From positions 550,479 through 614,478 of the forward strand of contig JACPEJ010000001.1 of the NCBI GenBank assembly GCA_016183565.1: 64,000 bases of DNA, given 5' to 3'. The stretch is from Candidatus Blackburnbacteria bacterium. Its GTDB lineage: Bacteria; Patescibacteriota; Microgenomatia; UBA8517; UBA10165. The notes under the pieces are model-generated. The model was not told the DNA's origin, made no database searches, and saw only the letters and a program-made list of their open reading frames with translations. Numbering within the stretch: position 1 is the stretch's first letter; every line of letters starts with the position of its first letter. Positions 14,724 through 64,000 of the stretch are shown one piece after another. Position numbers and translations under genes: made by a program.

Positions 14724-15526
14724 CACCTCGGGAGTGGCCGCTCGGGTTGTCGCATGTGTCATGAATGATAAATTTGGCGTAATCGGAAGCGACACTCCCG
14801 AGGTGTAGGTTCGAGGTGTAGGTTTAGAACTCTTCCATATCCAATAGCTGGTGTTTGATTCTCTCCAGAGTTTCCCCATACGAAATCTGATCTTCTAGGA
14901 AACTTTTATACTTTTTAGATGAATTGGAGAAAAATGATAAGATTTCACTAACTTCGCACAACTTGCTATTCCCTATCATAAAATCTTGATAAGAAGACCA
15001 TGGGTACTCGCCCAAACTTTTGGTTAGATGAGAGACAATTGGGTTAAGATGGATATATCTGGATACGTGGAGAAATTGATCTTCGCTTTCGACCCGTACA
15101 GCCTTAAACCTGCCTTGGAAAAGGGGCCCTATTTTCCTATGTTTTGTATTAAAGTACTTTACATAGCTGTTGGACAACTGACCTACGAATTTTGAGATAC
15201 CGCCATCTTGTAGTTGTTGCACCAGAAGGTGGAAATGGTTAGGCATTAGACAATATGAGAAAATTTTTACTATTTTCTTTTTATCTGATAATTTAATAGG
15301 TAGTAGAGTACCGTGTGTAAATTTGGAAAATTTAGGTTTGGGCCCTTCGATATAATAATAAGAAGTAGTCTGTAGGAACCTTTTATAATCCCTCTGTAGT
15401 AAGAAAATATCTTGCTTGTTAGCACCACGATTAAAAATGTGGTATGTTTCATTGGTTATAAGTGGAGTTAATCTACCAGGCATTATTTTTAATTATGAGC
15501 GGCCACTCCCGAGGTGTCAATATCGG
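14724..15526 (-). mobile_element. REP-associated tyrosine transposase (IS200/IS605 TnpA-like, RAYT) unit with flanking inverted REP hairpins
   Basis: The CDS 14824..15483 has the HUH motif (PNHFHLLVQQ) and an IS200-like N-terminus. The 20-nt sequence gagcggccactcccgaggtg at 15497-15516 is the exact reverse complement of 14724-14743. An additional REP-like copy lies at 14790-14825. Confidence 0.75.
14824..15483 (-). CDS. IS200-like Y1 (HUH) transposase, REP-associated (RAYT)
   Basis: 219 aa. YHIFNRG..., ...CLMPNHFHLLVQQ (HUH) and a downstream Tyr-containing helix. Paralog at 56402..57076. Confidence 0.8.
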   Translation of the reverse strand: MPGRLTPLITNETYHIFNRGANKQDIFLLQRDYKRFLQTTSYYYIEGPKPKFSKFTHGTLLPIKLSDKKKIVKIFSYCLMPNHFHLLVQQLQDGGISKFVGQLSNSYVKYFNTKHRKIGPLFQGRFKAVRVESEDQFLHVSRYIHLNPIVSHLTKSLGEYPWSSYQDFMIGNSKLCEVSEILSFFSNSSKKYKSFLEDQISYGETLERIKHQLLDMEEF

Positions 15527-19522: not shown

Positions 19523-20866
19523 ATGCGTACTCTTCGATATTGGGCAAGGTTCTCGGCGACTTTTTTAAAAAGGTTTAAAAGGATCCTTTTTGCTAGCATA
19601 TTTTTGGGGATTTTGGGCTTCCTTTTTTATTCTCAGGCGAGTAAGGTTTTCTCACTTTTTAATCGGGGTGAGGTTATAGGCATTGTCGGTAAGCTTTCTT
19701 TGACTGATTTGCCTTCAGAAATTCAATCAAAGGTAAGCCTTGGACTAACTACTTTGGATGAAAACGACAATGTTAAGCCTGGAATTGCAACTTATTGGGA
19801 AAGCCAGGAAGAAGGTAGGGTTTGGATTTTCAAACTCGGAGATTATACTTGGCAAGATGGTTCGCGAATTCGCGCTTCGGATATAAATTATCAATTTTCC
19901 GATGTAACTAAAGAAATTTTGGATGATAGAACTATCAAATTTACTCTAAAAGATCCTTTTGCTCCGTTTCCTTCTGTTGTTTCAAGACCGATATTTAAGC
20001 AGGGTCTTTTGGGGGCAGGGGAATGGGAAGTTCAAAAATTATCTTCACTTAGTTCGCAGTTGACTCAATCAATTCAGTTAGTTAGTAAAAAAACGGGGAA
20101 AAAACAAACCTATCGTTTTTATCAAACTGAGGATGCTCTTAGAACTGCATATAAGCTAGGTCAGATAAACAAATTGATGGGAATAATGGACACCCGAGAA
20201 CTTTCTGGTTGGCCCAATAGTGTTGTTGAGGAATATACCCACGAGGATAGATATGTGGGGATTTTTATAAACACCGAAGATCCTATTCTTTCTTCAAAAA
20301 GTGCAAGACAAGCTTTGGCATACGCAATAAATAAAGACAATTTTCCTCAAAAGAGGGCAATAAGTCCTATTTCCCCGAATTCATGGGCGTTTAATCCGCA
20401 GGTAAAACAATATAATTATAATTTAGATCGAAGCCGCGAGCTTCTTAAGACATTACCAGAACAAGTTAAAAAAGACCTCAACATTAATCTTGTAACCTCA
20501 CCAAGTCTTTTACATATTGCTGATAAGATTAAGTCGGACTGGGAGGTGGTTGGGGTGAAAACTCATATTCAAGTATCTAATGCGCCACCGCAAAGTTTCC
20601 AAACTTTTCTTGCGATACAAGCAATTCCATATGATCCGGATCAATACAGTTTTTGGCATTCGACACAGACTGCTACAAACATAACAAGATATAGTAAAAA
20701 AGAGAAAGAAAGCCAAAGGATTGACAAGCTTTTGGAGGATGGTAGAAAAACATTGGATGCGGAGGAGCGCAAGAAGATTTATTTTGATTTCCAAAGGTTC
20801 TTACTTGAAGACCTTCCTGTTATTCCTCTTTTTCACCCGGTTACTTATACTATTTCGAGGAAGTAG
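19523..20866 (+). CDS. Membrane-anchored solute-binding-protein family 5-like protein
   Basis: N-terminal TM. ATYWESQEEGRVWIFKLGDYTWQDGSRIRASDINYQF and ARQALAYAINKD resemble SBP_bac_5 (Dpp/Opp-like) motifs. Truncated relative to full-size SBPs. Confidence 0.45.
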   Translation: MRTLRYWARFSATFLKRFKRILFASIFLGILGFLFYSQASKVFSLFNRGEVIGIVGKLSLTDLPSEIQSKVSLGLTTLDENDNVKPGIATYWESQEEGRVWIFKLGDYTWQDGSRIRASDINYQFSDVTKEILDDRTIKFTLKDPFAPFPSVVSRPIFKQGLLGAGEWEVQKLSSLSSQLTQSIQLVSKKTGKKQTYRFYQTEDALRTAYKLGQINKLMGIMDTRELSGWPNSVVEEYTHEDRYVGIFINTEDPILSSKSARQALAYAINKDNFPQKRAISPISPNSWAFNPQVKQYNYNLDRSRELLKTLPEQVKKDLNINLVTSPSLLHIADKIKSDWEVVGVKTHIQVSNAPPQSFQTFLAIQAIPYDPDQYSFWHSTQTATNITRYSKKEKESQRIDKLLEDGRKTLDAEERKKIYFDFQRFLLEDLPVIPLFHPVTYTISRK

Positions 20867-20898
20867 TAAAGCAGGGTGCTCTAACCGAGCAGGTTCCC

Positions 20899-20933
20899 GA
20901 TGTGCAAACCTGTTCCACTCCCGATGTGGAATG
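20899..20933 (+). repeat. REP-like element (GATGTGCAAAnCTnTTCCAC-loop-GTGGAA family)
   Basis: gatgtgcaaacctgttccactcccgatgtggaatg is near-identical to copies at 52521-52555 and 57084-57117. Confidence 0.6.
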
Positions 20934-20997
20934 TATCTCTCGTTTTGCCATAGTGTTTATTGTAATTTTCTGTACATTTCTGTAGATAACTGTCAAT

Positions 20998-21072
20998 TGG
21001 AGCGGGTGATGGGAATCGGACCCACTGTCTCCTCCTTGGCAAGGAGGCATTTTACCGGTAAACTACACCCGC
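20998..21072 (-). tRNA. tRNA-Gly (GCC)
   Basis: The reverse complement folds as a cloverleaf: acceptor GCGGGTG/CACCCGC, anticodon loop TTGCCAA, T-loop TCCGATT, encoded CCA. Confidence 0.85.
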
Positions 21073-21077
21073 CTGTG

Positions 21078-21150
21078 TGCCGAGCTCCGGAATCGAACCG
21101 ACATCTGATCTTCTTCAGAGACCCGCCGTGACCAACTTGGCTAGCTCGGC
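21078..21150 (-). tRNA. tRNA-Phe (GAA)
   Basis: The reverse complement GCCGAGCTAGCC...GGTCTCTGAAGAAGATC... has anticodon loop CTGAAGA, T-loop TTCGATT and acceptor GCCGAGC/GCTCGGC. No encoded CCA. Confidence 0.75.
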
Positions 21151-21213
21151 TTAATATTTTTTAGTGGTTTCTTTGTTGTCTTCAGATCTATAATGCCTTT
21201 TGTTTGGCATGTG

Positions 21214-21287
21214 TGGACACTGAGGGACTTGAACCCCCGACCTTCTCAGTGTAAATGAGACGCTCTAGCCAACTGAGCTAAGTGTCC
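21214..21287 (-). tRNA. tRNA-Val (TAC)
   Basis: The reverse complement GGACACTTAGCTCAGTTGGCTAGAGCGTCTCATTTACACTGAGA... has anticodon loop TTTACAC, T-loop TTCAAGT and an encoded CCA. Confidence 0.85.
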
Positions 21288-21434
21288 TTAAGTATCCCCA
21301 ATTCTATTTCATTTTGGTATTTTTTTCAAGGAAAATTGGTGCGGGAGGTGTTGTACCCGCCTGCCGGACGGGCAGGTCTGTTCCACCGGTTCGGCTGAGC
21401 TCACGGTCGAAGTCTTTCAGGTGGAATTAAGGTT

Positions 21435-21455
21435 ACACCTCGGGGGTGGCCGCTC
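21435..21455 (+). repeat. REP-like element (copy of the RAYT-flanking repeat)
   Basis: acacctcgggggtggccgctc differs by one base from the repeat at 14724-14743 and 15497-15516. Confidence 0.55.
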
Positions 21456-21477
21456 TAACTCTAAACTAAACTATACA

Positions 21478-22215
21478 TCAATTGAGGATATCCGAGAGGA
21501 GACGTTTTGCTATATCATCTGTCCTTTGCGCAATTAGTCCCGGTTGTTCTTGAACATGGAGCGGAATGTCCTTTGCAACCTGGAAAAACTGGTAAGTACG
21601 CAATAGCGGGGGATGGGTTTCAATTACGGTATGTGAACCAAATTTACCCGCAATAAATTGCATTACAATAGAGCGTAACTCACGAATTCTAAGAAAAAAC
21701 TCACGGGTGGTAAATGGTGGGGCCAGAGCAGCGCGTCTTGAAAAACCCTTAGGCAAGAAACGGGAAGTAGCCATGTCCGGTAGAACAGAAAAGGTAACTA
21801 ACGCAAAACCAAAGGCTTCGTCTGTTTCCCGCGGACTTGGTTTTCCACTTCTTTGGGCTATTTCCATAAACCGCTGATAGTCAAAGGCATCTATTTTCCC
21901 TGTTCTGTCTATCTTGTTCAGGTTTTTCAGAAATCCGTTTTCTGCATCCAATAAATAATCTAATGTTTCACCAGCAAGATAGCCTAAGGCTGGTTGTTTA
22001 TCTGGAAGCCAATCTATCAAGCACAAATCCATCAAAAAAGCGGTATTGCGTGCCACAACAACTGGAGTTGGATTATCCCGAGTAATAACTATATCAGAAG
22101 AAGGTTCACCACGTTCTACTATCATAGATACCTTATAGCATACAGAAGATTGTATTTGCAAGCTGAAAAAATGATGGCCAGTGCACCTTTTCCCCTCTGG
22201 GTTGAAAAGACACAC
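21478..22215 (-). CDS. Hypothetical protein, co-oriented and operonic with the PRTase
   Basis: 245 aa ORF with a 12-nt gap to the upstream PRTase gene. No motif I can assign. Confidence 0.45.
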   Translation of the reverse strand: MCLFNPEGKRCTGHHFFSLQIQSSVCYKVSMIVERGEPSSDIVITRDNPTPVVVARNTAFLMDLCLIDWLPDKQPALGYLAGETLDYLLDAENGFLKNLNKIDRTGKIDAFDYQRFMEIAQRSGKPSPRETDEAFGFALVTFSVLPDMATSRFLPKGFSRRAALAPPFTTREFFLRIRELRSIVMQFIAGKFGSHTVIETHPPLLRTYQFFQVAKDIPLHVQEQPGLIAQRTDDIAKRLLSDILN

Positions 22216-22227
22216 TGGCCGGATGGG

Positions 22228-22866
22228 TTAGGGGAGAGCACCAAGACGACGTAGGAGGAACTCACGCCCTTTGCCAATGTCTGTGTTGATCGGCACGCCT
22301 TGGGCGCACAGCGGACAGTCCGCTTCATTCCATGCGTCCATCGTCACATCAACAAGCGATACGAGCTTTGGCACGTATGCTAGATCCTCTGGCGTGACCC
22401 CTCTGCGATTGCAGAGGACACCAAGACCGGCGACGTTCCCGCCGATTGCCCGCGTGACTTCGATAACCTTTCGGGCCAAGCCGCCGGTGGTGAGAACATC
22501 TTCCACTACGAGGACGTTCCTGCCTTGGATGAGCTTGTCGTAGCCACGCCTGATTGCGAATCCGTCTCCTTCCTTATCAGCGTAGACGCCGAGTACTTCT
22601 TGGCCGGTTATCAGGGTTAGGTGGTGGGCTGTCCACTGTGAGAGAATCACGCCGCCAACTGCCGGAGCGATGACTACCCTCACCTTGTCGTCCGCGAACT
22701 GCTCGGCGATTGCGCGGCACAGGCGAGACGTTTCTACAGTGTGTGGGTAGACCGCATCCTTGTTGACGTAGGCCGTGCCGTGCTTGCCGGAAGTGTAGAC
22801 GATGTGGCTATTCGTGATCACTGCGCCGACTCTCCCGAGCACTTCCAGGACTTCCGCTTCGGTCAC
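22228..22866 (-). CDS. Type I phosphoribosyltransferase (orotate/purine PRTase-like)
   Basis: PRPP-binding loop VLVVEDVLTTGGL, ~210 aa, with an AAGGAGGAG RBS 4 nt upstream. The local sequence is visibly GC-richer than its surroundings. Confidence 0.8.
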   Translation of the reverse strand: MTEAEVLEVLGRVGAVITNSHIVYTSGKHGTAYVNKDAVYPHTVETSRLCRAIAEQFADDKVRVVIAPAVGGVILSQWTAHHLTLITGQEVLGVYADKEGDGFAIRRGYDKLIQGRNVLVVEDVLTTGGLARKVIEVTRAIGGNVAGLGVLCNRRGVTPEDLAYVPKLVSLVDVTMDAWNEADCPLCAQGVPINTDIGKGREFLLRRLGALP

Positions 22867-23408
22867 ATCTCCTCCTTGTTTTCAAGGTGTGTGTCCAACA
22901 CATCTGCACTGGTCAGTATTGGGCAGCTACCTCTTGGACTTGGTCGGGTGTCAGCTCTCCGAGCCAGAACTTATAATGTGTTTTGCCAGGAAGGAAGTCT
23001 TGCATACCCAGAGCAGTAGCCACAGCGGAGATGCCTTCCAAGCTAACCGGAAAGTCTTGGATTAGGACATGTACCTTACCTGAACCAGGTTGGTGAAGTC
23101 CGAAAAGGTATTGTCATACCTCACCTTCGGTATACTCCAGCCTGTATCTTCCCGATACTCGGACCTCACCTTCGATGTCTCCCAGAATCTGGGCGGGTGA
23201 GAGAGGGGTATCACCGGATTTTATTGCTATCTCGCTGGCAGGTATCCGTGGAGGCGTGTAGGGAAACTCTGGGTCAAAGATGGGCCTTCTCGTGTGCCGA
23301 GTCTGCATGGGGCGCGATCTCCTTTCAAAGTGCGTTTGTCCGACGCGTAAATCCTATTCCTATGAGTTTTGTCAGACTGAGCTAAGTATATGCCGAAGAA
23401 CGGACAAG

Positions 23409-23942
23409 TCAACGGGGTATTATTTTTTTAAGTCCCTTGGTTGCTGCTCTTTGTTCTATTTCGTCTGGGCCAGAGTTGCATGTCATAGGAGCCTTGCTAT
23501 TGTGAGGAACCAAAAATTTAGGGGTCGAACTAAACAAACAGATGCCTTGAGGGTCTTGGGGTATATTTATTTGGGCTCTGCCGTTAGCTTGAGGTAAAAG
23601 TTGCGCGATTGCTCCTGCGTCTTCTTTAGATACAAAAAGGGGGCATGTTTCGCAATTTTTTGTTACATATCTGTGGTCCCAGTCCCAGCGAGATGTTTTT
23701 CCAAGCACTACTTCCACAGGCTTTCCCAAAACAGTATAGGCTGTTACCTGTGTAATTTCAGTTTCAGCTTTTCCTGTAGTAGCTTTTCTTCTTTTTGGAC
23801 GGATTCTTTCGGGATAGTAGGATACTGGTAAGACTCTGTGGTCTTCTAGCCATTGGTCCCACTCGTGGGGTTTTACAAGATCACGATAGGGTGTAGTAAG
23901 CCCTCGTTCCTTTTGCATTAGGGGGATTATATCACACACCAC
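23409..23942 (-). CDS. Hypothetical protein
   Basis: 177 aa ORF ending next to the tRNA-Leu cluster. No recognisable motif. Confidence 0.35.
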   Translation of the reverse strand: MVCDIIPLMQKERGLTTPYRDLVKPHEWDQWLEDHRVLPVSYYPERIRPKRRKATTGKAETEITQVTAYTVLGKPVEVVLGKTSRWDWDHRYVTKNCETCPLFVSKEDAGAIAQLLPQANGRAQINIPQDPQGICLFSSTPKFLVPHNSKAPMTCNSGPDEIEQRAATKGLKKIIPR

Positions 23943-23970
23943 CTGAATTTGGTGGTATAATTGTCTACTT

Positions 23971-24054
23971 GGGCAAGTGGCGGAATTGGCAGACGCGTAC
24001 GGTTCAGGGCCGTATGGGTTTACACCTGTGGAGGTTCGAGTCCTCTCTTGCCCA
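23971..24054 (+). tRNA. tRNA-Leu (CAG)
   Basis: GGGCAAGTGGCGGAATTGGCAGACGCGTACGGTTCAGGGCCGTA... has anticodon loop TTCAGGG, a long variable arm, T-loop TTCGAGT and acceptor GGGCAAG/CTTGCCC. Confidence 0.85.
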
Positions 24055-24163
24055 CAGTTTTACATATACAACTCGTTTCAAAACTCAGAGATTAGCTTTG
24101 CTAAAATTTTTGAAACGAGATTGGAGAAGCTGTTTTGAAACAGCTTCATAATCTAAAACCTAA

Positions 24164-24249
24164 GCCAGGGTGGAGAAATTTGGTAAACTCGCTATCTTGA
24201 GGAGGTAGTGCCGAAAGGCTTGCAGGTTCAAGTCCTGTCCCTGGCACCA
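24164..24249 (+). tRNA. tRNA-Leu (GAG)
   Basis: GCCAGGGTGGAGAAATTTGGTAAACTCGCTATCTTGAGGAGGTAG... has anticodon loop TTGAGGA, a long variable arm, T-loop TTCAAGT and an encoded CCA. Confidence 0.8.
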
Positions 24250-24265
24250 GGATTTTGAAGCACAT

Positions 24266-24336
24266 TGCGGGATCGTCTAGTGGTAGGACACGGGTCTTTG
24301 GAGCCCGGTACCATGGTTCGAATCCATGTCCCGCAG
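24266..24336 (+). tRNA. tRNA-Gln (TTG)
   Basis: TGCGGGATCGTCTAGTGGTAGGACACGGGTCTTTGGAGCCCG... has the U1:A72 pair and G73 characteristic of bacterial tRNA-Gln, anticodon loop CTTTGGA, and T-loop TTCGAAT. Confidence 0.75.
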
Positions 24337-24566
24337 CATATTTTTTGGGCCATCTCGTAGGCCGAAGACTCCGCAGTTAAAAAAACCTATAACCTCAAAG
24401 CTAATTTGACACTGGTTACGGAAAAGGTGTTCAATGATGGGGTGGACGATACCGAACAGCAGGAAGTACCTAAATTACCCACAACTTGATAAGGGGTTGG
24501 ATACTCCTGAGAATGCCAGAAAACCAGATATTGAAAGAATACAACGTAAGCTCGGTACGATTTAAG

Positions 24567-34992: not shown

Positions 34993-35046
34993 AGGTGTCG
35001 TATCTGATCCACCCCCGAGGTGGATTTCGCCTTACACCTCTGGAGC
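34993..35046 (+). repeat. REP-like element pair (gtgtcgtatctgatccacc-hairpin family)
   Basis: gaggtgtcgtatctgatccacccccgaggtggatttcgccttacacctctgg. The 19-nt core is shared with the intragenic copy at 55470-55505. Confidence 0.5.
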
Positions 35047-36975: not shown

Positions 36976-37231
36976 ACTCTTAAACTGTCGGCTCGAACGG
37001 GTTGCTTTAGCAACCCCAAAAAACGCGAAAATTTTTTAAAGAACTTTTTCCTTTTTGTTTTTCACTTAAAAGGCGCAACCGGTGGACTCAACAAGAATTG
37101 TGTTCTGTTGTCCGATTGCGCCATTAAAAAACACAATTCATAAAATGTTGAGTCCATGAAAAATATATACTGAAGAATGATAAATTTCAACTGGGATTAT
37201 TTATATCAAAACTAAACAAATAAAAATAACA

Positions 37232-37633
37232 ATGGAACTTAAAACATCTTTGTGCAATACTAAATTTGTGAAGTATAAACTTGTACTAACATTGGCTTTA
37301 ACATTTGGCATTATACCTTCTCTACTTTTGCATAGATTTATTTACGGAATTTCTCATGAAAGTGCTGTATATCTAGAATGCAGATTATTATCAAGCTGTT
37401 CGCATTATTACGAGGGTCTAGCACTAAAATTTGTTTCACTTGTTTATTTAATTTTGTATAGCATAACAGTGCTATACTTTCCTTATAAAATAGCAAGAAA
37501 GGAGAGTACGTCTCTTCTTTCATTGCAAACCATCAAAGAAATGGATCTCAAAAGTATTCTAATCGTAATTTTTGTAAGTTTACTATATCTACCGTTAATC
37601 TTTTTTCTGAGTTCCTCAAATAATCCCTTGTGA
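37232..37633 (+). CDS. Small membrane protein (hypothetical) inside the IR-flanked cassette
   Basis: 133 aa with 3 TM helices. Very AT-rich. Confidence 0.4.
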   Translation: MELKTSLCNTKFVKYKLVLTLALTFGIIPSLLLHRFIYGISHESAVYLECRLLSSCSHYYEGLALKFVSLVYLILYSITVLYFPYKIARKESTSLLSLQTIKEMDLKSILIVIFVSLLYLPLIFFLSSSNNPL

Positions 37634-37705
37634 TGGGTTTTTCCGTCTCTTAATGGCTTTTAACTGAAATTTGACTTTTCCAATAAAATATGTGTAAATT
37701 AAATA

Positions 37706-38044
37706 ATGGCTAATAATAGTGTGAATTCTTCTAGTAGTAAATCCTCGGGCATTAAAACAATAGTCACTATTATAATGTTGTTCTTGCTTTACCCGGTAGG
37801 TGTAATTATGATGTTTGTATGGATGAAGTGGCCAATATGGGTAAAAATTATAACGACCCTTGTAATGTTTTATGTTTTTTTTGTAATTATTGGGGCAGTA
37901 GCGGGGTTAGTAGTTCAGGTAACTGATCCTTATGGAAAAATATTTGAAGCACAGCGTAGGCAATGTACAGCTCAATGCGAAAATGTCCCTAATGCAACTG
38001 CCTGTATGACTGAATGTCTAGAGAAGTTGCGAGCTCCGAAATAA
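37706..38044 (+). CDS. Small membrane protein with Cys-rich C-terminus (hypothetical)
   Basis: 112 aa with 2 TM helices. C-terminal CTAQCENVPNATACMTEC. Confidence 0.4.
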   Translation: MANNSVNSSSSKSSGIKTIVTIIMLFLLYPVGVIMMFVWMKWPIWVKIITTLVMFYVFFVIIGAVAGLVVQVTDPYGKIFEAQRRQCTAQCENVPNATACMTECLEKLRAPK

Positions 38045-38051
38045 ATTTAGA

Positions 38052-38771
38052 TTAAACTACCAAAAAGTATTTTTTAAAAGGTAAGGATATTTGACCTTCT
38101 TCATTTACAAATTTATCCGTAGACAAAGATAAGCATGCAATTTTAGATTTACCATATAGAAATAATAAATGACCACTGTTAGAAGTTGCTGTTAACCAAG
38201 ACTTTTTAATTACTTCAACATTGTGAACTTGCCAAAATAGCTGAAATAAAGTTATTGGGATCATAAGAATTAGTATCATATTGATAACAAATTTAATTGT
38301 TGATAAATCATTAATACCTGTAAATTTATTTAAGAGAAAAGGTCCAAAGAAATATAAGGAGATGCCAATAAGGATCGCGTTTACTAGGTTTTGCAAACGT
38401 CTGTCTACAAAATAATTATTATTAGTCTCTATTAAGAAGGCAGGAACTGGAAATAACTTAAGTTCAAAGCAAAGCTTCTTAGATATAAGTTGGTCATCTG
38501 GGTAAACTTGTCTAATTAGAACTTCAATCGGCCGAAATGGAATAAAGTTATAAAGCCAATCTTTGAATGTAATAATTCCAGATTCTTTAGATTTGAATTT
38601 TTTAATAGCATCCTTGATAGTTTTAGTAGTAAAAAATATTGGAACACCGATAAAAATGACTACAGACATTATTATAAGAACTATTGTTGCTAAATCACGA
38701 AGTTGTTTGTTAGAGGTGGGATTAGAAATTATGATTGCTCCACCAAAAAGCACTATCACAACTAATAACAC
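38052..38771 (-). CDS. Polytopic membrane protein (hypothetical), convergent with the two genes above
   Basis: 239 aa with 5-6 TM helices. Confidence 0.4.
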   Translation of the reverse strand: MLLVVIVLFGGAIIISNPTSNKQLRDLATIVLIIMSVVIFIGVPIFFTTKTIKDAIKKFKSKESGIITFKDWLYNFIPFRPIEVLIRQVYPDDQLISKKLCFELKLFPVPAFLIETNNNYFVDRRLQNLVNAILIGISLYFFGPFLLNKFTGINDLSTIKFVINMILILMIPITLFQLFWQVHNVEVIKKSWLTATSNSGHLLFLYGKSKIACLSLSTDKFVNEEGQISLPFKKYFLVV

Positions 38772-39045
38772 CAGAATAAAAGTTAATAGAAAAGATTTTA
38801 TAGCTTTAGTATAGCAAATCTACTATCTATAATTCTCTAAAAAAAGAGAAGATAAAATCAGTACCGTTCCCCTTAAAATTTCTGCTACAATATCAGGGGG
38901 AGAAAAGTTTTCGCGCACGGGAGGGCGGGGCAAGAAAACATTAAATTGTTTTTGTGTCCTTGTCCGCCATAGGCGGACTATAAATAATAAAAATCGCGCG
39001 CATTTAAAATACTTTCTAAGTATTTTGCAAAAAATACATAGAGCG

Positions 39046-58953: not shown

Positions 58954-59192
58954 AAAATCATCACCTCCCATCCATGACCAGAGTAACTCTATAAGGTAAT
59001 CAAATGATTAGTTGAAACAAAGGAGGTAAAAGACTTCAACAGCTTTTCGAAAAAGCGGGCATTAGGGGTAGGGAATGGTAGCCTGAAGAAAAATGATTGG
59101 TGACAAGTCAAAATGTTTCGTTTTTGGACTGTCTCTCAGTCTTTTTTAGGATCGTCCCTCAAGATATTTTTATGCCAAGGAAAGCATTAGCA

Positions 59193-59726
59193 TCATCTCT
59201 CACCACCAGCCATAGAATCCGTTCTACCGTCATTAAATTTAATATCTATAGTGCTTCTCCCTTTACCGAAGGAAATAAGGCCAATTGATTCTATTCCTGT
59301 TTTTGGCTTCAAAATTGGTTGATCTGATAAAACTTCGGTTAAGATATCTACAAAAGCTGACCAACCATTATCTTCAAATACACTTGTAGGTAAAGAATAT
59401 CTATCAAATAACTCTCTAAGTTCCTTCTTAAGTGCATTCATATTTAAAAAATCAAATATCCCATCGTCCTTGATTGGATGATGAGATGATGCAGGATAAC
59501 ACTCATCAATTTTATCTATTATCTCTTTTATTACTTCATGATTTTCTTTTGTTGTGTGTACTGTCCAATTACAATAAAATCTGGCCAATAGAAAATCTGG
59601 ATTGTTATCTCTATCTAACAATTTCCTAATCTCTACTAGAAGATACACGACATGACATTCCTCTTCAAATATAGGATATTTTGTTAAAAACTTATCTAGT
59701 TTTTCTATAATTTCTTCTCTTGCCAT
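59193..59726 (-). CDS. Hypothetical protein (operon gene 4)
   Basis: 177 aa with a 13-nt gap to the upstream gene. No motif. Confidence 0.4.
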   Translation of the reverse strand: MAREEIIEKLDKFLTKYPIFEEECHVVYLLVEIRKLLDRDNNPDFLLARFYCNWTVHTTKENHEVIKEIIDKIDECYPASSHHPIKDDGIFDFLNMNALKKELRELFDRYSLPTSVFEDNGWSAFVDILTEVLSDQPILKPKTGIESIGLISFGKGRSTIDIKFNDGRTDSMAGGER

Positions 59727-59739
59727 AGATTTTACTTAA

Positions 59740-60447
59740 TTAAACTGTAGAGACTTCGGAATTTATAACTATCTCAACTTCAGTTTCACTTTTAGTAAGT
59801 CTCTTTAAAAAATTAATAACTTCCGCCAAATTCATGGGATCCAATATCAAATTTGTATCTAGCTGAATAGTCAGATATACAATTCTCCGTATAGACTTAT
59901 CCGTCTGTAAATAATTTAGGAGCTGGTCTTTTGCTGACGTTATAGTGTTTGTAATTTTATTCTTTAATGCCTCAGACATTCCAGTTGCTACTTCCTGTAA
60001 GATTAATTCTGAACCTGAAAACATTCGCCTGCTGTTTTCTAGAATATAATTTCTTTCATCATCTGAAAAACCAATAGTTTTAGATTCTAATAAAACCGCT
60101 ACTTTCTGGGATTTACTGCCTTCTATATCTGGTGTTCTAACTGTGGTTTCTGGAATAAATTTTACATCTTCATACCCTTCATCAAGTAGAAAGCAAAATC
60201 CCATTACCTCTGATAAGGTATCAAAAAATTGAGCCCAACCCCTGACTGGATGTTTTTTTAATCTGCTTTGTAGTTTCTGTTTAATGAATTCCCAGTTGTC
60301 TGGATCTAATCTTTGTAAAGACTTTTCATAAGGCTCGAATGCCTGAGGAGCTTGTTTCAATCCCTCAGGAAGACGATTCTGGATATCATCAAGTGAAGTT
60401 GAGGGTGGAAGATTATTACAAAATTCTAGTAAACGCTTAAATTCCAT
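59740..60447 (-). CDS. Hypothetical protein (operon gene 3)
   Basis: 235 aa with a 25-nt gap to the upstream gene. No motif. Confidence 0.4.
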   Translation of the reverse strand: MEFKRLLEFCNNLPPSTSLDDIQNRLPEGLKQAPQAFEPYEKSLQRLDPDNWEFIKQKLQSRLKKHPVRGWAQFFDTLSEVMGFCFLLDEGYEDVKFIPETTVRTPDIEGSKSQKVAVLLESKTIGFSDDERNYILENSRRMFSGSELILQEVATGMSEALKNKITNTITSAKDQLLNYLQTDKSIRRIVYLTIQLDTNLILDPMNLAEVINFLKRLTKSETEVEIVINSEVSTV

Positions 60448-60472
60448 AAAAAACTTTGTCTAAATTATACAA

Positions 60473-61105
60473 TCATTCTTCTTTTTTGATCCAAGGTTCG
60501 GTAAAAGCAACCTGCCAATCATCTGCAACCGGTGTAAGTGAGCTATAACCAGATTGAGTAAGAAGTAATTGGTATTTTATCACGAGTGCTTCTATCTGAT
60601 TCATCGCATCTTTAATTTTTGTATAACTAATATTGGACGGAAACTTGCCAGTATTATCTTTATGTCCAACATTCTTATTTCTGAATTGTTTAATTTCCTT
60701 AGCAGCTCCCTCAAGATTTTTAATATCCTCACTTACTAACTTTGAATCTAAAAAATCTCCTTTGCCAAATTTTTCTTCGAACTCTTCTGATGATAAGACA
60801 TTGGGACCCTGAGATACCCACCAATTTTTGGTAATAAGTTTGTGATTACTTAGTAAATCCTTAAGTAGATTAATCAGGCTAAGTGAGTCGCTATCCGTAT
60901 CAATCTGGTGCCATATCTTTGAAATAATAAAAAATGTGTAGTTTAATTTGTAGTGCTCCCAAAAGGAACCTATATGTTGTTTCACAAAATCATTTTCTTT
61001 GATAATTTTCTCTAACTCATCAGCATGATATTTACTGTAAAGTAAATCTTCAACGTCACCAGTAATTTCCTCTATCTCTTTTTGCCATTTCTGTATCTTG
61101 TCCAT
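60473..61105 (-). CDS. Hypothetical protein with R-x5-H (HEPN-like) motif (operon gene 2)
   Basis: KEIKQFRNKNVGHKD gives R-x5-H in a predicted helical region. 210 aa. Starts 2 nt after the upstream stop. Confidence 0.4.
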   Translation of the reverse strand: MDKIQKWQKEIEEITGDVEDLLYSKYHADELEKIIKENDFVKQHIGSFWEHYKLNYTFFIISKIWHQIDTDSDSLSLINLLKDLLSNHKLITKNWWVSQGPNVLSSEEFEEKFGKGDFLDSKLVSEDIKNLEGAAKEIKQFRNKNVGHKDNTGKFPSNISYTKIKDAMNQIEALVIKYQLLLTQSGYSSLTPVADDWQVAFTEPWIKKEE

Positions 61106-61107
61106 AA

Positions 61108-61677
61108 TTAATTTAATTTCTCTCTTAATATGCGCATCTGTTCATAATCTAAACTGACAATCTGGTCATATCTCTTTTTAAAAAGTCCTCTTAACACTTC
61201 GCTATTATCTAATTCCTTCTCAAAGTCCTTTAATGCCTTCTTCGTGTATTCATAGAAATCTGGTACATTTAGAAAAAGTATTTCTTCACTCTGGCCGAGC
61301 ACTTTTCTTAAAAAATAATTATCCGCAAAATTCATATCGATAGCTGATGCTTTAGGGGACCATTGATGTGCCAAACCGTGTCTAAAAATATAATAAAACT
61401 GTTTTGAAAACTCTTTGTCCTTAAACTTATCGTAGTATTTAGAAAAGTATCTAACAAAGAAATCCGCAACAGTATTAGAGTTAGAGTCTGTCCCTTTAAA
61501 GTAACCTGAGCATAATTCAATTACAGTGAAAATTATTAGACATGAGGTGAAGTTTAAACCGCCCTTAAAACGAGTATCGCCAGACTGTTTTAACTTAGAT
61601 ACCAATAAACAACTATCTAAGTCATCACAGAAAAATTCCCAGATTTGCTGTTTAAATACATCATTATGCAATGCCAT
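61108..61677 (-). CDS. Hypothetical protein with R-x4-H (HEPN-like) motif (operon gene 1)
   Basis: YYIFRHGLAHQWSPK gives R-x4-H. 189 aa. Confidence 0.4.
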   Translation of the reverse strand: MALHNDVFKQQIWEFFCDDLDSCLLVSKLKQSGDTRFKGGLNFTSCLIIFTVIELCSGYFKGTDSNSNTVADFFVRYFSKYYDKFKDKEFSKQFYYIFRHGLAHQWSPKASAIDMNFADNYFLRKVLGQSEEILFLNVPDFYEYTKKALKDFEKELDNSEVLRGLFKKRYDQIVSLDYEQMRILREKLN

Positions 61678-61740
61678 ATTGATTCACTTCTATCGTCTTA
61701 ATTTACTCCGGCATTAGGCCGTAGAGTCTATAAACATAAT

Positions 61741-61938
61741 TTATATCCTTGTGATCAGTTTAATAATATCTTCTCTTCGGTATCGTCTTTCTCCAACTCC
61801 TTTTTTATTCCCCACCCGAATTGCTTTTAATTTTCCACTATTATCCCACCTTCTTAGTGTTGTAGGAACGACTCCTAGTATTTTTGCTACTTGGTTAATA
61901 TTTAAAAGTCTTGGCAATCTTATCATATTTTCTGCCAT
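61741..61938 (-). CDS. Excisionase/AlpA-family helix-turn-helix DNA-binding protein
   Basis: 65 aa. LLNINQVAKILGVVPTTLRRWDNSGKLKAIRVG is a MerR-like/Xis-type HTH. Confidence 0.6.
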   Translation of the reverse strand: MAENMIRLPRLLNINQVAKILGVVPTTLRRWDNSGKLKAIRVGNKKGVGERRYRREDIIKLITRI

Positions 61939-61988
61939 CTTAATTAAAAATAGTTATTGTACTTTATTATACAGAAAAAACCCGTACC
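61939..61988 (-). promoter_or_regulatory. Conserved promoter/operator-like block (copy 2)
   Basis: cttaattaaaaatagttattgtactttattatacagaaaaaacccgtacc vs 43464-43513 cttaattaaaaattgttattgcactttattgtgcaaagaaaacccgcaac. Confidence 0.45.
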
Positions 61989-62131
61989 GAGCTATGTTTA
62001 AAAGGCGATAGACAATAAAGAAAAATGGGTTAAGATTTAATTTTAGGAGTTTTTGAAGCTAATTCTGGTTGTAACCACCATATTAAATCTGGTAAACTAC
62101 TCATTGTAAGGAATTCCTGCGAGAATTCGCG

Positions 62132-62200
62132 CAGTCTGTGCAATATCCCGTGAGGATCACAAGTTAACAATTGTTAAAAATAGATGAAAGAAGTTAACAG
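62132..62200 (+). promoter_or_regulatory. Conserved ~70-bp block with near-palindromic GTTAACAATTGTTAA site upstream of a plus-strand gene (copy 1)
   Basis: cagtctgtgcaa...caagttaacaattgttaaaaatagatgaaagaagttaacag. The second copy is at 63561-63629 (gttaacagttgttaac). Confidence 0.5.
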
Positions 62201-62214
62201 AAAACATTAATATT

Positions 62215-62706
62215 ATGTCAATGATTCAACATTATAAACAGGTAACTCAAAACAAAATACTGGAGATAGATAAAAACACTTCTATCATTCCTAAAATCCT
62301 TCAAGACAATGAAAGCTATCCACAACTTAATATCGACAAATCTTGGGATGGAATTCATTTTCTACTAACTGGAAAAGCTACTGGAGATAAAGTTGATCAA
62401 TCTAATCCTCTAGAGTGGGTTATAGCAGGATGGGGTGAACAGGGACCAGAAGTTGGTTACGGACCTTCTCGTGTTGTAGCACCCAAAGAAGTTACACAAC
62501 TTGCACATATTCTGTCTAAACTCAAAGATGATGATTTTAAAAAAAGATTTGATCCAGTAAAAATGAATGACGTTGGAATTTATCCCGATGGAATTTGGGA
62601 TGAAGAAAATATTTTAGATTGGTTGGTAGACAATTTTCATCAAGTTAAGGATTTTTACATAGATGCAGCTAAAAAGGGTAATGCAGTTTTGATTTGGACT
62701 GATTAA
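62215..62706 (+). CDS. Hypothetical protein (YfbM/DUF1877-like)
   Basis: 163 aa. The WDGIHFLLTG-containing N-terminus is reminiscent of DUF1877. Low confidence. Confidence 0.35.
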   Translation: MSMIQHYKQVTQNKILEIDKNTSIIPKILQDNESYPQLNIDKSWDGIHFLLTGKATGDKVDQSNPLEWVIAGWGEQGPEVGYGPSRVVAPKEVTQLAHILSKLKDDDFKKRFDPVKMNDVGIYPDGIWDEENILDWLVDNFHQVKDFYIDAAKKGNAVLIWTD

Positions 62707-62882
62707 TTTCTGCTATAACTGTTTTTACCGAATGATCCTTGTGCCACCAGAGGCGAGCCTCGCCCTTTAGGCGGGGTGAAAGTATCCTTCGACTCTCTAC
62801 GCTCGCTCAGGACTTAGCCTTACTGTTAGGGAACGAATGTTGACACCAGATTTGGTGATTCATCTAAGCCACAGGGATCGAA

Positions 62883-63149
62883 TTAGACTCTCTGATTTAC
62901 TACGTAATAATCAATGAGCCTTCTAATCATTGCTTGATAGGAAGCTCCATGTTTTTTAGCAGCACTTTTAAAAAACTCTAAGCTTTTTTGAGAAAGTGTT
63001 AAAGTTACCTTTGTCCTCTTTTCTTTAAATATAAGATCATCTGGACTTGGCAAGAAATTTTCTATGACTCTTGCATTAATTGGTTCATCTTTGTACACGA
63101 TTTTTTTCTTCATAGATTTTTTTACCCTTTCTCCAATAGCCCGCACCAA
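62883..63149 (-). CDS. brnA: BrnA-type antitoxin (ribbon-helix-helix-like, type II TA)
   Basis: KVTLTLSQKSLEFFKSAAKKHGASYQAMIRRLIDYYV matches the BrnA C-terminal region. Overlaps the toxin gene. The start is possibly at the internal MKKKIVYKDEP. Confidence 0.65.
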   Translation of the reverse strand: MVRAIGERVKKSMKKKIVYKDEPINARVIENFLPSPDDLIFKEKRTKVTLTLSQKSLEFFKSAAKKHGASYQAMIRRLIDYYVVNQRV

Positions 63150-63372
63150 TTATCCTAATGCGGTTTTTTCTATATGTGAAACGGACAGTTAAAACACCTC
63201 CTTTCACTTTTCCGAAACAGTAGAATCTTTTTTCCTTTTGACTATGCTCTAGATCTTCAGCGATTACCTGACTTGGGTCAGCAAACGCGTATTGTGCTGT
63301 TTCAAAATTGACTCCGTGCTTTCTTAACTTCTCAGTATTTTTATCCTCATCCCACTCAAAACTTGTATTCAT
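63085..63372 (-). CDS. brnT: BrnT-type toxin (DUF497 RNase, type II TA)
   Basis: FEWDEDKNTEKLRKHGVNFETAQYAFADP...RIIGAGYW matches the BrnT/DUF497 signature. Confidence 0.7.
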   Translation of the reverse strand: MNTSFEWDEDKNTEKLRKHGVNFETAQYAFADPSQVIAEDLEHSQKEKRFYCFGKVKGGVLTVRFTYRKNRIRIIGAGYWRKGKKIYEEKNRVQR

Positions 63373-63560
63373 AAATATATTACCATACTGCCATACTTTT
63401 TACCATACACAAAATATGAGTTATTAATCAATATATTCATCATAACAAATCTGCAAAAGTTAAAAGGAGTTGGTGTACTTTATTGTGCATCTCTTAGACC
63501 AAATGTATAAACAAATTCCGAGTTTAGGTCGTCAGACAGGAATAAATCGATAAACTCATT

Positions 63561-63629
63561 CAGTCTGTGCAAGGTAGTAACGGGGTCGCAAGTTAACAGT
63601 TGTTAACAATAGATGAAAGAAATTAATAA
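63561..63629 (+). promoter_or_regulatory. Conserved ~70-bp block with near-palindromic GTTAACAGTTGTTAAC site (copy 2)
   Basis: Aligns with 62132-62200 across cagtctgtgcaa...caagttaaca.ttgttaa.aatagatgaaagaa.ttaa. Lies immediately upstream of the ORF starting at 63640. Confidence 0.5.
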
Positions 63630-63639
63630 AAAATTAGTA

Positions 63640-64000
63640 TGAAAAAAATCTTGATGATTCTTGTTCCCTTACTGTTGTTAGTTGCGGCAGTTTTGATTAG
63701 AACCTCTGTGCTTCAAAGCAATAGCAAGCAAGATTACAATAATGCGCGTAAACAATTTGCAGAACAAGTCAGGCAGTTTAAGGAAAAAGGAGAAATTCAA
63801 GTTGTAAAAATTTCAAAATATAACGGAATAAAAACATACAAGACAGTTTCTTCCAGTGAAAAGATTATTGCTTTGGAAATAGCTATTAAACCTAAAAATG
63901 CAGAACTCGATCTTGATGACCTGCAAATACTCTCAGAAGAGAAAAAAATGTTAGGATATGGATGGCCAGAAATTAATCTCGATGACATCAATAGAGATAA
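63640..64000 (+). CDS. Secreted/anchored hypothetical protein, 3'-partial at window end
   Basis: ATG at 63640 followed by MKKILMILVPLLLLVAAVLIRTSV (signal peptide or anchor). The ORF stays open to the end of the window. Confidence 0.4.

What the first reader, a model, noticed from the sequence alone, without database searches (positions are those of the whole stretch)
21435..23950. GC-rich ~2.5-kb insert between two tRNA clusters carrying a PRTase operon and a ~540-nt gene-free stretch
Between the tRNA-Gly/Phe/Val cluster plus a REP copy (21435) and the tRNA-Leu/Leu/Gln cluster, base composition shifts visibly toward G+C, especially 22230-23400. The insert holds a type I phosphoribosyltransferase (VLVVEDVLTTGGL, strong AAGGAGGAG RBS) and a 245-aa protein of unknown function 12 nt downstream.
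It also holds a 540-nt region (22870-23410) with only short overlapping ORFs on both strands, and a 177-aa orphan. Composition and the tRNA flanks argue for horizontal acquisition. The gene-free GC-rich stretch could be a decayed gene or a structured RNA.
Basis: partly seen in the sequence, partly recalled or inferred. Interest (0 to 1): 0.55.

Follow-up and report, generated by a model that had tools for sequence, protein, structure and literature searches.

The report
Foreign pyrE cassette with broken leader gene
A 1.2-kb GC-rich stretch in a tiny-genome groundwater bacterium (Candidatus Blackburnbacteria) is a horizontally acquired two-gene unit: an orotate phosphoribosyltransferase gene (pyrE) and a small unique upstream gene. 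That upstream gene carries one premature stop codon in this strain, so the "gene-free" region is neither empty nor an RNA, and the case is an ordinary gene transfer.

Summary
The GC shift is real but narrower than reported. The best-fitting GC-rich segment is 22175-23350 (55.9% GC, against about 40% for the window).

The PRTase is a PyrE-type orotate phosphoribosyltransferase. Its relatives at 70-78% identity usually sit beside pyrF or pyrD. Its GC3 is 0.66, against 0.33 +/- 0.05 for the other long ORFs of the window.

The "540-nt gene-free stretch" is a 131-codon minus-strand ORF (23308-22913) with a good ribosome-binding site. One in-frame TGA (23116-23114) interrupts it. A near-identical contig from another sample reads GGA there and has the ORF intact. 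Five other contigs share the TGA. The ORF has no credible homologue.

No Rfam family matches, and folding energy on either strand equals that of shuffled sequence.

A sigma-70-like promoter (23412-23385) and a 20-pair hairpin with a U-tract (22220-22166) bracket the GC-rich segment. The downstream gene therefore starts at 22125 (215 aa) and is not in the operon. It and the 169/177-aa gene have host-like composition.

There is no integrase and no att repeat, and both tRNA clusters face the insert with their 5' ends. The closest named PyrE relatives are Parcubacteria, so a non-CPR donor is not supported.

Verdict: an ordinary horizontal acquisition, of low interest.

The parts
23385..23412 (-). 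Sigma-70-like promoter TTGACT-16 nt-TATACT. Its -35 box overlaps the TGA stop of the upstream 169/177-aa gene. It lies about 75 nt upstream of the orf131 ATG.
   Evidence: Consensus scan, 10 of 12 matches. It sits at the upstream end of the GC-rich segment. Function is inferred, not shown.
22913..23308 (-). orf131: a 131-codon ORFan with an ATG start and the ribosome-binding site GAAAGGAGA. In this genome it is cut to 64 codons by an in-frame TGA at 23116-23114. The sibling contig L001 reads GGA (Gly) there.
   Evidence: Single-frame translation. Intact ORF in L001 and the single G/T difference. TGA allele on 5 Logan contigs, GGA allele on 1. An ORF this long occurs in 1% of dinucleotide shuffles; GC1/2/3 = 0.64/0.43/0.50. 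No credible homologue.
22869..22877 (-). Ribosome-binding site AAGGAGGAG of pyrE, 2 nt before the GTG start at 22866-22864.
   Evidence: Read from the sequence.
22228..22866 (-). pyrE: orotate phosphoribosyltransferase of the TIGR01367-like subgroup, 212 aa, intact, GC 58.5%, GC3 0.66.
   Evidence: PF00156 at 39 bits. TIGR01367 at 118.7 bits over the full length, below its cut-off of 150.25. Best PDB match is the OPRTase 4paw_A, E = 4.6e-12. 3162 homologues; most examined loci are next to pyrF or pyrD. 79 of 81 near-invariant family columns are kept. Composition.
22166..22220 (-). Intrinsic-terminator-like element: a roughly 20-pair hairpin (22220-22176) followed by AUCAUUUUUU. It starts 8 nt after the pyrE stop codon.
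   Evidence: RNA fold of 22240-22120 (-): -34.6 kcal/mol, z = -2.9. The same hairpin explains the chance 'mir-316' match. It coincides with the downstream GC boundary at 22175.
21478..22125 (-). Neighbour, not part of the insert: a 215-aa hypothetical protein (NCBI HYU80_02935). The 245-aa reading from the GTG at 22215 runs through the terminator hairpin.
   Evidence: The exact 215-aa product is in NCBI. GC3 is 0.35. Two homologues at 52% identity lie in 38-39% GC contigs, next to tRNA genes and without pyrE.
23409..23942 (-). Neighbour, not part of the insert: a 177-aa ORF (169 aa as annotated, HYU80_02945), an ORFan with host-like composition.
   Evidence: GC3 is 0.34. No family or phage match. 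No close relative in metagenome contigs.
20998..21287 (-). tRNA-Gly(gcc), tRNA-Phe(gaa) and tRNA-Val(tac). The 5' end of tRNA-Val faces the insert.
   Evidence: ARAGORN and Rfam.
23971..24337 (+). tRNA-Leu(cag), tRNA-Leu(gag) and tRNA-Gln(ttg). The 5' end of tRNA-Leu(cag) faces the insert.
   Evidence: ARAGORN and Rfam.

Best explanation
A self-contained transcription unit of about 1.2 kb was acquired horizontally by a Candidatus Blackburnbacteria (Microgenomates, Patescibacteria) genome. In order it has a promoter, orf131, pyrE and a terminator. It now lies between two host-composition ORFan genes, in the spacer between two divergently oriented tRNA clusters.

pyrE encodes an orotate phosphoribosyltransferase (orotate + PRPP -> OMP + PPi) of the TIGR01367-like subgroup. 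The most likely source is another Patescibacteria lineage of higher GC, of the Parcubacteria type. In relatives the gene is usually paired with pyrF; here it arrived or survived without pyrF.

orf131 is a small upstream gene unique to this population. In the sequenced strain a GGA-to-TGA change truncates it to 64 residues, which made the region look gene-free. The intact allele persists in a sibling strain.

Shown: the composition, the gene identities, the nonsense polymorphism, the assembly-independent junctions, and the absence of any RNA-family or excess-structure signal.

Inferred: the direction and source of the transfer, use of the promoter and terminator, enzymatic activity, and whether orf131 makes a functional protein.
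For: Composition:
- The GC-rich segment is 22175-23350, at 55.9% GC. The maximum elsewhere in the window is 46%.
- pyrE GC3 is 0.66 and orf131 GC3 is 0.50. The other 48 long ORFs average 0.33 +/- 0.05 with a maximum of 0.44.

Identity of the PRTase:
- It matches PF00156, TIGR01367 over its full length, and the PDB OPRTase 4paw.
- Homologues at 71-78% identity lie next to pyrF and/or pyrD in L002, L003/4, L007/8, L009-11 and L025-27.
- 79 of 81 near-invariant family columns are kept.

Host: Ca. Blackburnbacteria, Microgenomates group.

Donor lineage: named close relatives are Taylorbacteria, a Parcubacteria-group bacterium and Paceibacterota.

orf131: one frame with one TGA. L001 reads GGA, and that is the only difference inside the four-gene block. 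The TGA allele is on 5 contigs and the GGA allele on 1. ORF length has p of about 0.01 against shuffles.

Unit boundaries: the promoter-like site and the terminator hairpin coincide with the GC boundaries.

Assembly: independent contigs cover 24016-22748 and 22791-21357 at 100% identity, so the MAG is not chimeric here.

Relatives: homologues of the 215-aa neighbour in 38-39% GC contigs have no pyrE upstream.
Against: - The closest PyrE in 5.8 billion proteins is only 78% identical. The window's protein is the most isolated member of an otherwise tight family. No donor is identified, and the timing is uncertain.
- No closely related Blackburnbacteria genome with an empty site was found.
- Solo pyrE genes occur in several other low-GC loci that are probably CPR (L005, L030, L032, L038, L040). 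Long residence in the lineage cannot be formally excluded.
- The TIGR01367 score is below the equivalog cut-off.
- Two near-invariant positions are changed: S130L in the PRPP loop and G155R.
- No pyrF lies within the 64 kb. Activity and physiological role are therefore unproven.
- orf131 has no homologues and no confident fold.
Confidence: 0.78

Rival explanations
1. The 22870-23410 stretch encodes a structured non-coding RNA, such as a leader, riboswitch or sRNA, rather than a protein.
For: The stretch is GC-rich in an AT-rich genome and NCBI left it unannotated. A 5-pair hairpin (CCUUG-AAAA-CAAGG) overlaps the pyrE ribosome-binding site.
Against: - No Rfam family matches at gathering score, or at E <= 10, within 22870-23410.
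- Minimum free energy equals that of dinucleotide shuffles on both strands (z = -0.02 and +0.05). The intercistronic segment has z = -0.97.
- One frame is open for 131 codons apart from a single polymorphic TGA. It has a ribosome-binding site and a coding-like GC1 > GC3 > GC2 pattern.
Confidence: 0.04
2. The stretch is the decayed remnant of a known donor gene. The obvious candidate is pyrF, which precedes pyrE in most relatives. On this view orf131 is an accidental open frame.
For: pyrF lies immediately upstream of pyrE in most close homologues. orf131 has no homologues. Its composition is intermediate between pyrE and the host.
Against: - tblastn with four PyrF proteins finds nothing better than E = 0.05 in 22800-24000 and nothing in the whole window.
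- Six-frame Pfam scans find nothing.
- The ORF has its own ribosome-binding site, and an ORF of this length arises in only about 1% of shuffles.
Confidence: 0.1
3. pyrE is vertically inherited in this lineage. Its high GC would reflect amino-acid constraint or gene-specific selection rather than transfer.
For: The protein is highly constrained (81 near-invariant columns). GC1 is 0.67 in all homologues whatever the host. Solo pyrE is common in low-GC loci. No close donor was found.
Against: - Synonymous-site GC (GC3 0.66) is about twice the host value and more than 7 SD above the other ORFs. Amino-acid constraint cannot explain that.
- Some homologues have host-like GC3 (L038 0.35, L007 0.53 against 0.51), so high GC3 is not intrinsic to the gene.
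- The non-homologous orf131 and the 5' UTR share the shift.
- Relatives of the adjacent 215-aa gene lack pyrE.
Confidence: 0.1
4. The in-frame TGA in orf131 is decoded (as glycine under genetic code 25, as selenocysteine, or by programmed read-through), so the gene is intact in this strain as well.
For: The alternative allele is GGA (Gly), which is the meaning of TGA in code 25, used by some Patescibacteria (the code assignment is from general knowledge). The TGA allele is the commoner one among sampled contigs.
Against: - 17 of 49 long ORFs in the window end with TGA, including orf131 itself and both neighbours, and long conserved genes are open under code 11.
- GGA is one of only eight sense codons that are one substitution away from TGA, so the coincidence is weak.
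- No SECIS-like Rfam match was found.
Confidence: 0.02
5. The whole 2.7-kb inter-tRNA block (169-aa gene, orf131, pyrE, 215-aa gene) is one genomic island, integrated at a tRNA gene by a site-specific recombinase.
For: The block is flanked by tRNA clusters and all four genes are on one strand. Three of them are ORFans. The 215-aa homologues also lie next to tRNA genes.
Against: - No integrase or transposase lies in the block or among ten flanking ORFs.
- No att-like direct repeats flank the block.
- The block abuts the 5' ends, not the 3' ends, of both tRNA clusters.
- The two outer genes have host codon composition.
- There are no phage or plasmid matches.
Confidence: 0.08

Closest known systems
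Orotate phosphoribosyltransferase PyrE, TIGR01367 ('pyrE_Therm') subgroup of type I phosphoribosyltransferases
   Same: The match to TIGR01367 covers the full length (residues 6-194 of the protein against positions 2-182 of 187). The PRPP motif VLVVEDVLTTGG is present. The C-terminal CPLC motif is shared with the PDB OPRTase 4paw. Identity is 70-78% to more than 100 protein clusters, and most sampled members sit next to pyrF or pyrD.
   Different: The score is below the equivalog cut-off (118.7 against 150.25). No pyrF partner lies within 64 kb. Codon composition is foreign to the host. Two near-invariant positions are changed (S130L, G155R).
The rph-pyrE operon of Escherichia coli, where the K-12 rph-1 frameshift lowers pyrE expression (from general knowledge, not tested here)
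   Same: pyrE is the distal gene of a two-gene unit. In one natural variant a premature stop in the upstream ORF ends translation well before pyrE.
   Different: The upstream gene here is an ORFan, not RNase PH. No attenuator-like terminator lies between orf131 and pyrE. An effect of the nonsense codon on pyrE expression is conjecture.
tRNA-associated genomic islands
   Same: A compositionally foreign segment lies next to tRNA genes.
   Different: There is no integrase and no att repeat. The segment is located at the tRNA 5' ends. Only about 1.2 kb is foreign.

Membership tests
Type I phosphoribosyltransferase (PF00156) | PRPP-binding motif (hydrophobic stretch, two acidic residues, then a T/A-G loop) and a Pfam score above the gathering threshold | tested here: met
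   VLVVEDVLTTGG is present. PF00156 scores 39.0 bits against a cut-off of 26.3.
Orotate phosphoribosyltransferase, TIGR01367 subgroup | Score at or above the NCBIfam equivalog cut-off | tested here: not met
   118.7 bits against a cut-off of 150.25. It is the best-scoring model by far and aligns over the full length.
Orotate phosphoribosyltransferase, TIGR01367 subgroup | Close homologues embedded in pyrimidine biosynthesis gene clusters (pyrF, pyrD) | tested here: met
   Homologues at 71-78% identity are adjacent to OMP decarboxylase and/or dihydroorotate dehydrogenase in L002, L003/4, L007/8, L009-11 and L025-27.
Orotate phosphoribosyltransferase, TIGR01367 subgroup | The gene's own linkage to pyrF, giving a functional orotate-to-UMP path | tested here: not met
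   No PyrF-like sequence in the 64-kb window at tblastn E <= 1, and no remnant upstream. The rest of the 686-kb contig could not be searched.
Orotate phosphoribosyltransferase, TIGR01367 subgroup | Retention of family-invariant residues | tested here: met
   79 of 81 columns that are at least 97% conserved in 118 homologues are retained. The exceptions are S130L and G155R. The other members have a median of 1 and a maximum of 6 such changes.
Orotate phosphoribosyltransferase, TIGR01367 subgroup | Catalysis of orotate + PRPP -> OMP | not testable with these tools
   Needs an enzyme assay or complementation of a pyrE mutant.
Integrase-mediated tRNA-targeted genomic island | Integrase or recombinase gene at one end | tested here: not met
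   No such domain in the four genes of the block or in ten flanking ORFs.
Integrase-mediated tRNA-targeted genomic island | Direct repeats (att) derived from the tRNA 3' end, flanking the island | tested here: not met
   No flanking direct repeat of 14 nt or more in 20800-24500. Both tRNA clusters face the block with their 5' ends.
Known structured RNA family (Rfam 15) | Covariance-model match, or thermodynamic stability beyond that of shuffled sequence | tested here: not met
   Only tRNAs reach gathering score. The four matches at E <= 10 are chance-level and lie outside 22870-23410. Fold z-scores are -0.02 and +0.05.
Alternative genetic code with TGA as a sense codon (codes 4 and 25) | TGA not used as a terminator; in-frame TGAs in conserved genes | tested here: not met
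   17 of 49 long ORFs end in TGA, and conserved genes (UvrC, BacA, SBP_5, GT2) are open under code 11.

The most novel reading that the evidence does not exclude
The TIGR01367-like pyrE may be a recurrently exchanged 'solo' gene among Patescibacteria. Its codon composition is decoupled from the host in many loci. It is too GC-rich in L005, L009, L030, L032 and this window, and too AT-rich in L003. It sits in a different context each time and is often near tRNA genes. Such a gene could let otherwise auxotrophic episymbionts use scavenged orotate or PRPP. On this reading orf131 is a recently born or fast-evolving leader ORF that is already being lost in most of the population.
Probability: 0.15. 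Interest if true: 0.4.

Novelty: new member of a known kind. Interest (0 to 1): 0.2.

Why it matters
The result corrects the annotation of this locus. An unannotated 131-codon ORF with a natural nonsense polymorphism lies upstream of pyrE. The downstream gene starts at 22125. The GC anomaly is a 1.2-kb promoter-to-terminator unit.

Biologically it adds one clear example of a nucleotide-metabolism gene acquired by a CPR bacterium, a group generally thought to lack de novo nucleotide synthesis. It also hints that this pyrE family moves between Patescibacteria lineages. It reveals no new mechanism or molecule.

Tried and rejected
- **Rfam:** scans of the whole window at gathering score and of 21280-24000 at E <= 10 gave only tRNAs and chance hits.
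- **Folding:** 22867-23411 on both strands, the orf131-pyrE spacer, and the 21288-21480 spacer showed no excess stability.
- **Family scans:** Pfam, PHROGs, NCBIfam and PADLOC found nothing for orf131, the 169/177-aa protein or the 215/245-aa protein. PADLOC also found nothing for the PRTase, so a defence-system PRTase is unlikely.
- **orf131 homologues:** the word-indexed search found none. The exhaustive search of 1.84 billion representatives found only short beta-strand motif matches to filamin/Ig-repeat proteins, judged not homologous.
- **Structure prediction:** AlphaFold2 gave pLDDT 37.7 for orf131 and 43.7 for the 215-aa family from a 3-sequence alignment. Both are too poor for fold search, which was not run.
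- **PyrF remnant:** none found.
- **Empty site:** looking for one through the BacA neighbour in GTDB species genomes gave relatives of only 57% identity or less, with no synteny. A metagenome scan with the 169-aa protein found nothing.
- **Mobile-element links:** a viral-contig scan for PyrE, phage tblastn for three proteins, and plasmid blastn for the cassette found nothing.
- **Small ORFs upstream of solo pyrE in L038 and L040:** not homologous to orf131.
- **Literature:** searches on CPR with OPRTase or pyrE, and on Blackburnbacteria, returned nothing relevant.
- **Contig L018:** its alternative junction inside tRNA-Leu does not form a valid tRNA, so it was treated as an assembly chimera.
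Full report
**Observation**

The window averages 39.8% GC. In 1-kb steps the only stretch above 50% is 22001-23000, at 53.7%. At 200-nt resolution GC is 51-60% from about 22200 to 23400 and falls to 41-49% on either side. A two-breakpoint likelihood fit inside the inter-tRNA region places the GC-rich segment at 22175-23350. That segment is 55.9% GC, against 43.3% for the rest of the inter-tRNA region. Windows of the same size elsewhere in the 64 kb never exceed 46%.

The flanking tRNA clusters are as described. Gly/Phe/Val lie on the minus strand at 20998-21287 and Leu/Leu/Gln on the plus strand at 23971-24337. The composition shift is therefore real and far beyond chance. It covers about 1.2 kb, not the whole 2.5 kb.

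**Host**

The exact PRTase protein and both neighbouring hypothetical proteins are in NCBI. They come from a MAG of Candidatus Blackburnbacteria, on a 686-kb contig, with locus tags HYU80_02935 to HYU80_02945. The lineage belongs to the Microgenomates group of Patescibacteria.

TGA terminates 17 of 49 long ORFs in the window, so the standard bacterial code applies.

**The PRTase is PyrE**

The 212-aa ORF (22866-22228, minus strand) has a GTG start and the ribosome-binding site AAGGAGGAG.
- It matches PF00156.
- It matches the orotate phosphoribosyltransferase model TIGR01367 over its full length, at 118.7 bits. This is below the equivalog cut-off of 150.25.
- Its best solved relative is the OPRTase 4paw, with which it shares a C-terminal CPLC motif.

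It has 3162 homologues, and the best 120 clusters are 70-78% identical. Genomic contexts settle the identity. Homologues lie directly after OMP decarboxylase (pyrF), sometimes followed by dihydroorotate dehydrogenase. This holds in a Taylorbacteria MAG, an Alphaproteobacteria MAG and several unnamed contigs.

The window's protein keeps 79 of 81 near-invariant family positions. The two exceptions are S130L in the PRPP loop and G155R. PADLOC finds no match to a defence system.

**The 'gene-free' stretch is a gene with one nonsense codon**

On the minus strand a single frame reads from the ATG at 23308 to the TGA at 22915-22913. It contains exactly one in-frame stop, the TGA at 23116-23114. A ribosome-binding site, GAAAGGAGA, precedes the ATG.

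A 2394-bp contig assembled independently from another sample (L001, SRR4343435) is identical across the four-gene block except at that position. There it reads GGA, which gives an intact 131-aa ORF that the gene caller recorded.

The truncated 64-aa product is recorded on five further contigs from the SRR12113xxx series. The TGA is therefore a real population variant and not an assembly error.

An ORF of this length arises in about 1% of dinucleotide shuffles of the region. Its GC1/GC2/GC3 values (0.64/0.43/0.50) look like those of coding sequence.

It has no credible homologue.
- The word-indexed search found nothing.
- The exhaustive HMMER search of 1.84 billion representatives returned only its own truncated allele plus short beta-strand matches to filamin/Ig-repeat proteins.
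- Pfam, PHROGs, NCBIfam, PADLOC and phage genomes gave nothing.
- A single-sequence AlphaFold model is unreliable, at pLDDT 37.7.

The region is not a decayed pyrF. Four PyrF proteins find nothing in it, and Pfam finds nothing in the other five frames.

**Not a structured RNA**

Rfam gives only tRNAs at gathering score, and no match in 22870-23410 even at E <= 10. The minimum free energy of 22867-23411 equals that of shuffles on both strands, with z = -0.02 and +0.05.

**Anatomy of the unit**

A sigma-70-like promoter, TTGACT-16 nt-TATACT, lies at 23412-23385 on the minus strand. It overlaps the stop codon of the upstream gene.

Eight nucleotides after the pyrE stop codon, a hairpin of about 20 pairs (22220-22176) is followed by AUCAUUUUUU. 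This hairpin also accounts for the spurious 'mir-316' match.

Both elements coincide with the GC boundaries. The foreign segment therefore reads as one unit: promoter, orf131, pyrE, terminator.

It follows that the '245-aa protein 12 nt downstream' is a mis-start, because its first 30 codons run through the terminator. NCBI's 215-aa product begins at the ATG at 22125. pyrE and that gene are not an operon.

No attenuator-like structure lies between orf131 and pyrE.

**Evidence for horizontal acquisition**

- pyrE GC3 is 0.66 and orf131 GC3 is 0.50. The other 48 long ORFs average 0.33, with SD 0.05 and a maximum of 0.44.
- The two flanking genes are host-like, with GC3 of 0.35 and 0.34.
- The 215-aa protein has only two homologues in 5.8 billion proteins, both at 52% identity. 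They lie on 38-39% GC contigs next to tRNA genes and have no pyrE upstream.
- The window contains no pyrF.
- Independent contigs cover 24016-22748 and 22791-21357 at 100% identity. Both junctions are therefore genuine.

**Donor**

The named close relatives of PyrE are from the Parcubacteria group: Taylorbacteria at 76% identity, plus a Parcubacteria-group bacterium and a Paceibacterota bacterium that belong to a cluster whose representative is 75% identical. There is also one Alphaproteobacteria MAG at 71%. A non-CPR donor is not indicated.

No close donor exists in the databases. The window's protein is the most isolated member of an otherwise tight family.

**Mechanism of insertion**

The mechanism is unknown.
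- No integrase or transposase lies in the block or in ten flanking ORFs.
- No flanking direct repeats were found.
- There are no phage, viral-contig or plasmid matches.
- Both tRNA clusters face the block with their 5' ends.

The tRNA flanks therefore add no mechanistic support for classical tRNA-targeted integration.

**What could not be settled**

- No closely related genome with an empty site was found. The closest BacA-bearing loci are only 57% identical or less and are not syntenic.
- It is unknown whether the host has pyrF elsewhere, whether PyrE with L130 is active, and whether the nonsense codon in orf131 lowers pyrE expression. The last idea rests on an analogy with E. coli rph-1/pyrE that comes from general knowledge and was not tested here.

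**In passing**

This pyrE family often has codon composition decoupled from its host in other loci, and it occurs alone in varied contexts. This hints at frequent exchange among Patescibacteria.

**Verdict**

The finding is a real compositional island with an ordinary explanation. It is a horizontally acquired pyrE transcription unit whose small ORFan leader gene carries a nonsense polymorphism. It is a new member of a known kind and of low interest.

Noticed in passing
window 24064-24150: An 87-bp segment between tRNA-Leu(cag) and tRNA-Leu(gag) is present here but absent from the otherwise near-identical sibling contig L001. It carries two hairpins: CTCGTTTCAAAA/TTTTGAAACGAG and GAAGCTGTTT/AAACAGCTTC. 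It is single-copy in the window and may be a small palindromic insertion or deletion.
   Followed up: partly
window 21435-21455; also 14724-14743, 15497-15517, 35009-35022: A REP-like GC-rich motif of about 20 nt (CACCTCGGGGGTGGCCGCTCT) recurs in intergenic positions. The surrounding 190-nt spacer (21288-21477) shows no excess folding stability.
   Followed up: partly
L005 2570-3202; L009 5001-5639; L030 6001-6609; L032 1-537; L003 3181-3810: Homologous pyrE genes in other contigs also have GC3 far from their surroundings. Values for pyrE against background are 0.75/0.39, 0.62/0.34, 0.54/0.37 and 0.58/0.32, and the reverse, 0.27/0.49, in the Alphaproteobacteria MAG. Several are solo, without pyrF, and near tRNA genes. 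This suggests frequent transfer of this gene family.
   Followed up: partly
window 22478-22480 (codon 130) and 22403-22405 (codon 155) of pyrE: The window's PyrE changes two positions that are at least 97% conserved in 118 homologues. These are S130L, in the PRPP-binding loop (TTGGS becomes TTGGL), and G155R. This may reflect relaxed constraint.
   Followed up: no
L018 1-289 (Logan SRR12113424) against window 24016: One sibling contig diverges from the window in the middle of tRNA-Leu(cag) and continues into unrelated sequence. The hybrid is not a valid tRNA, so this is probably an assembly chimera through a shared tRNA k-mer. Three other contigs end at the same point.
   Followed up: yes
window 21478-22125; L022 83-724; L023 2147-2788; L024 230-979: The 215-aa hypothetical protein belongs to a very rare family, with 3 members in 5.8 billion proteins. 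It has strongly conserved motifs (DEAFGF.LVTF, RFLPKGFS.R, APPFTTREFFLR, RTY.FFQV). In L022 and L023 it also lies beside tRNA genes. It matches no Pfam family, and its AlphaFold model is poor.
   Followed up: partly
window 37001-39000 and 59001-64000: These stretches have unusually low GC (31-34%, against a 40% mean) and ORFs with GC3 of 0.21-0.28. They were not examined.
   Followed up: no
window 23118-23185: orf131 contains an internal 23-nt direct repeat spaced 45 nt apart, encoding ..GDIEGEV.. and ..EYTEGEV... The polymorphic TGA/GGA codon directly follows the second copy.
   Followed up: no
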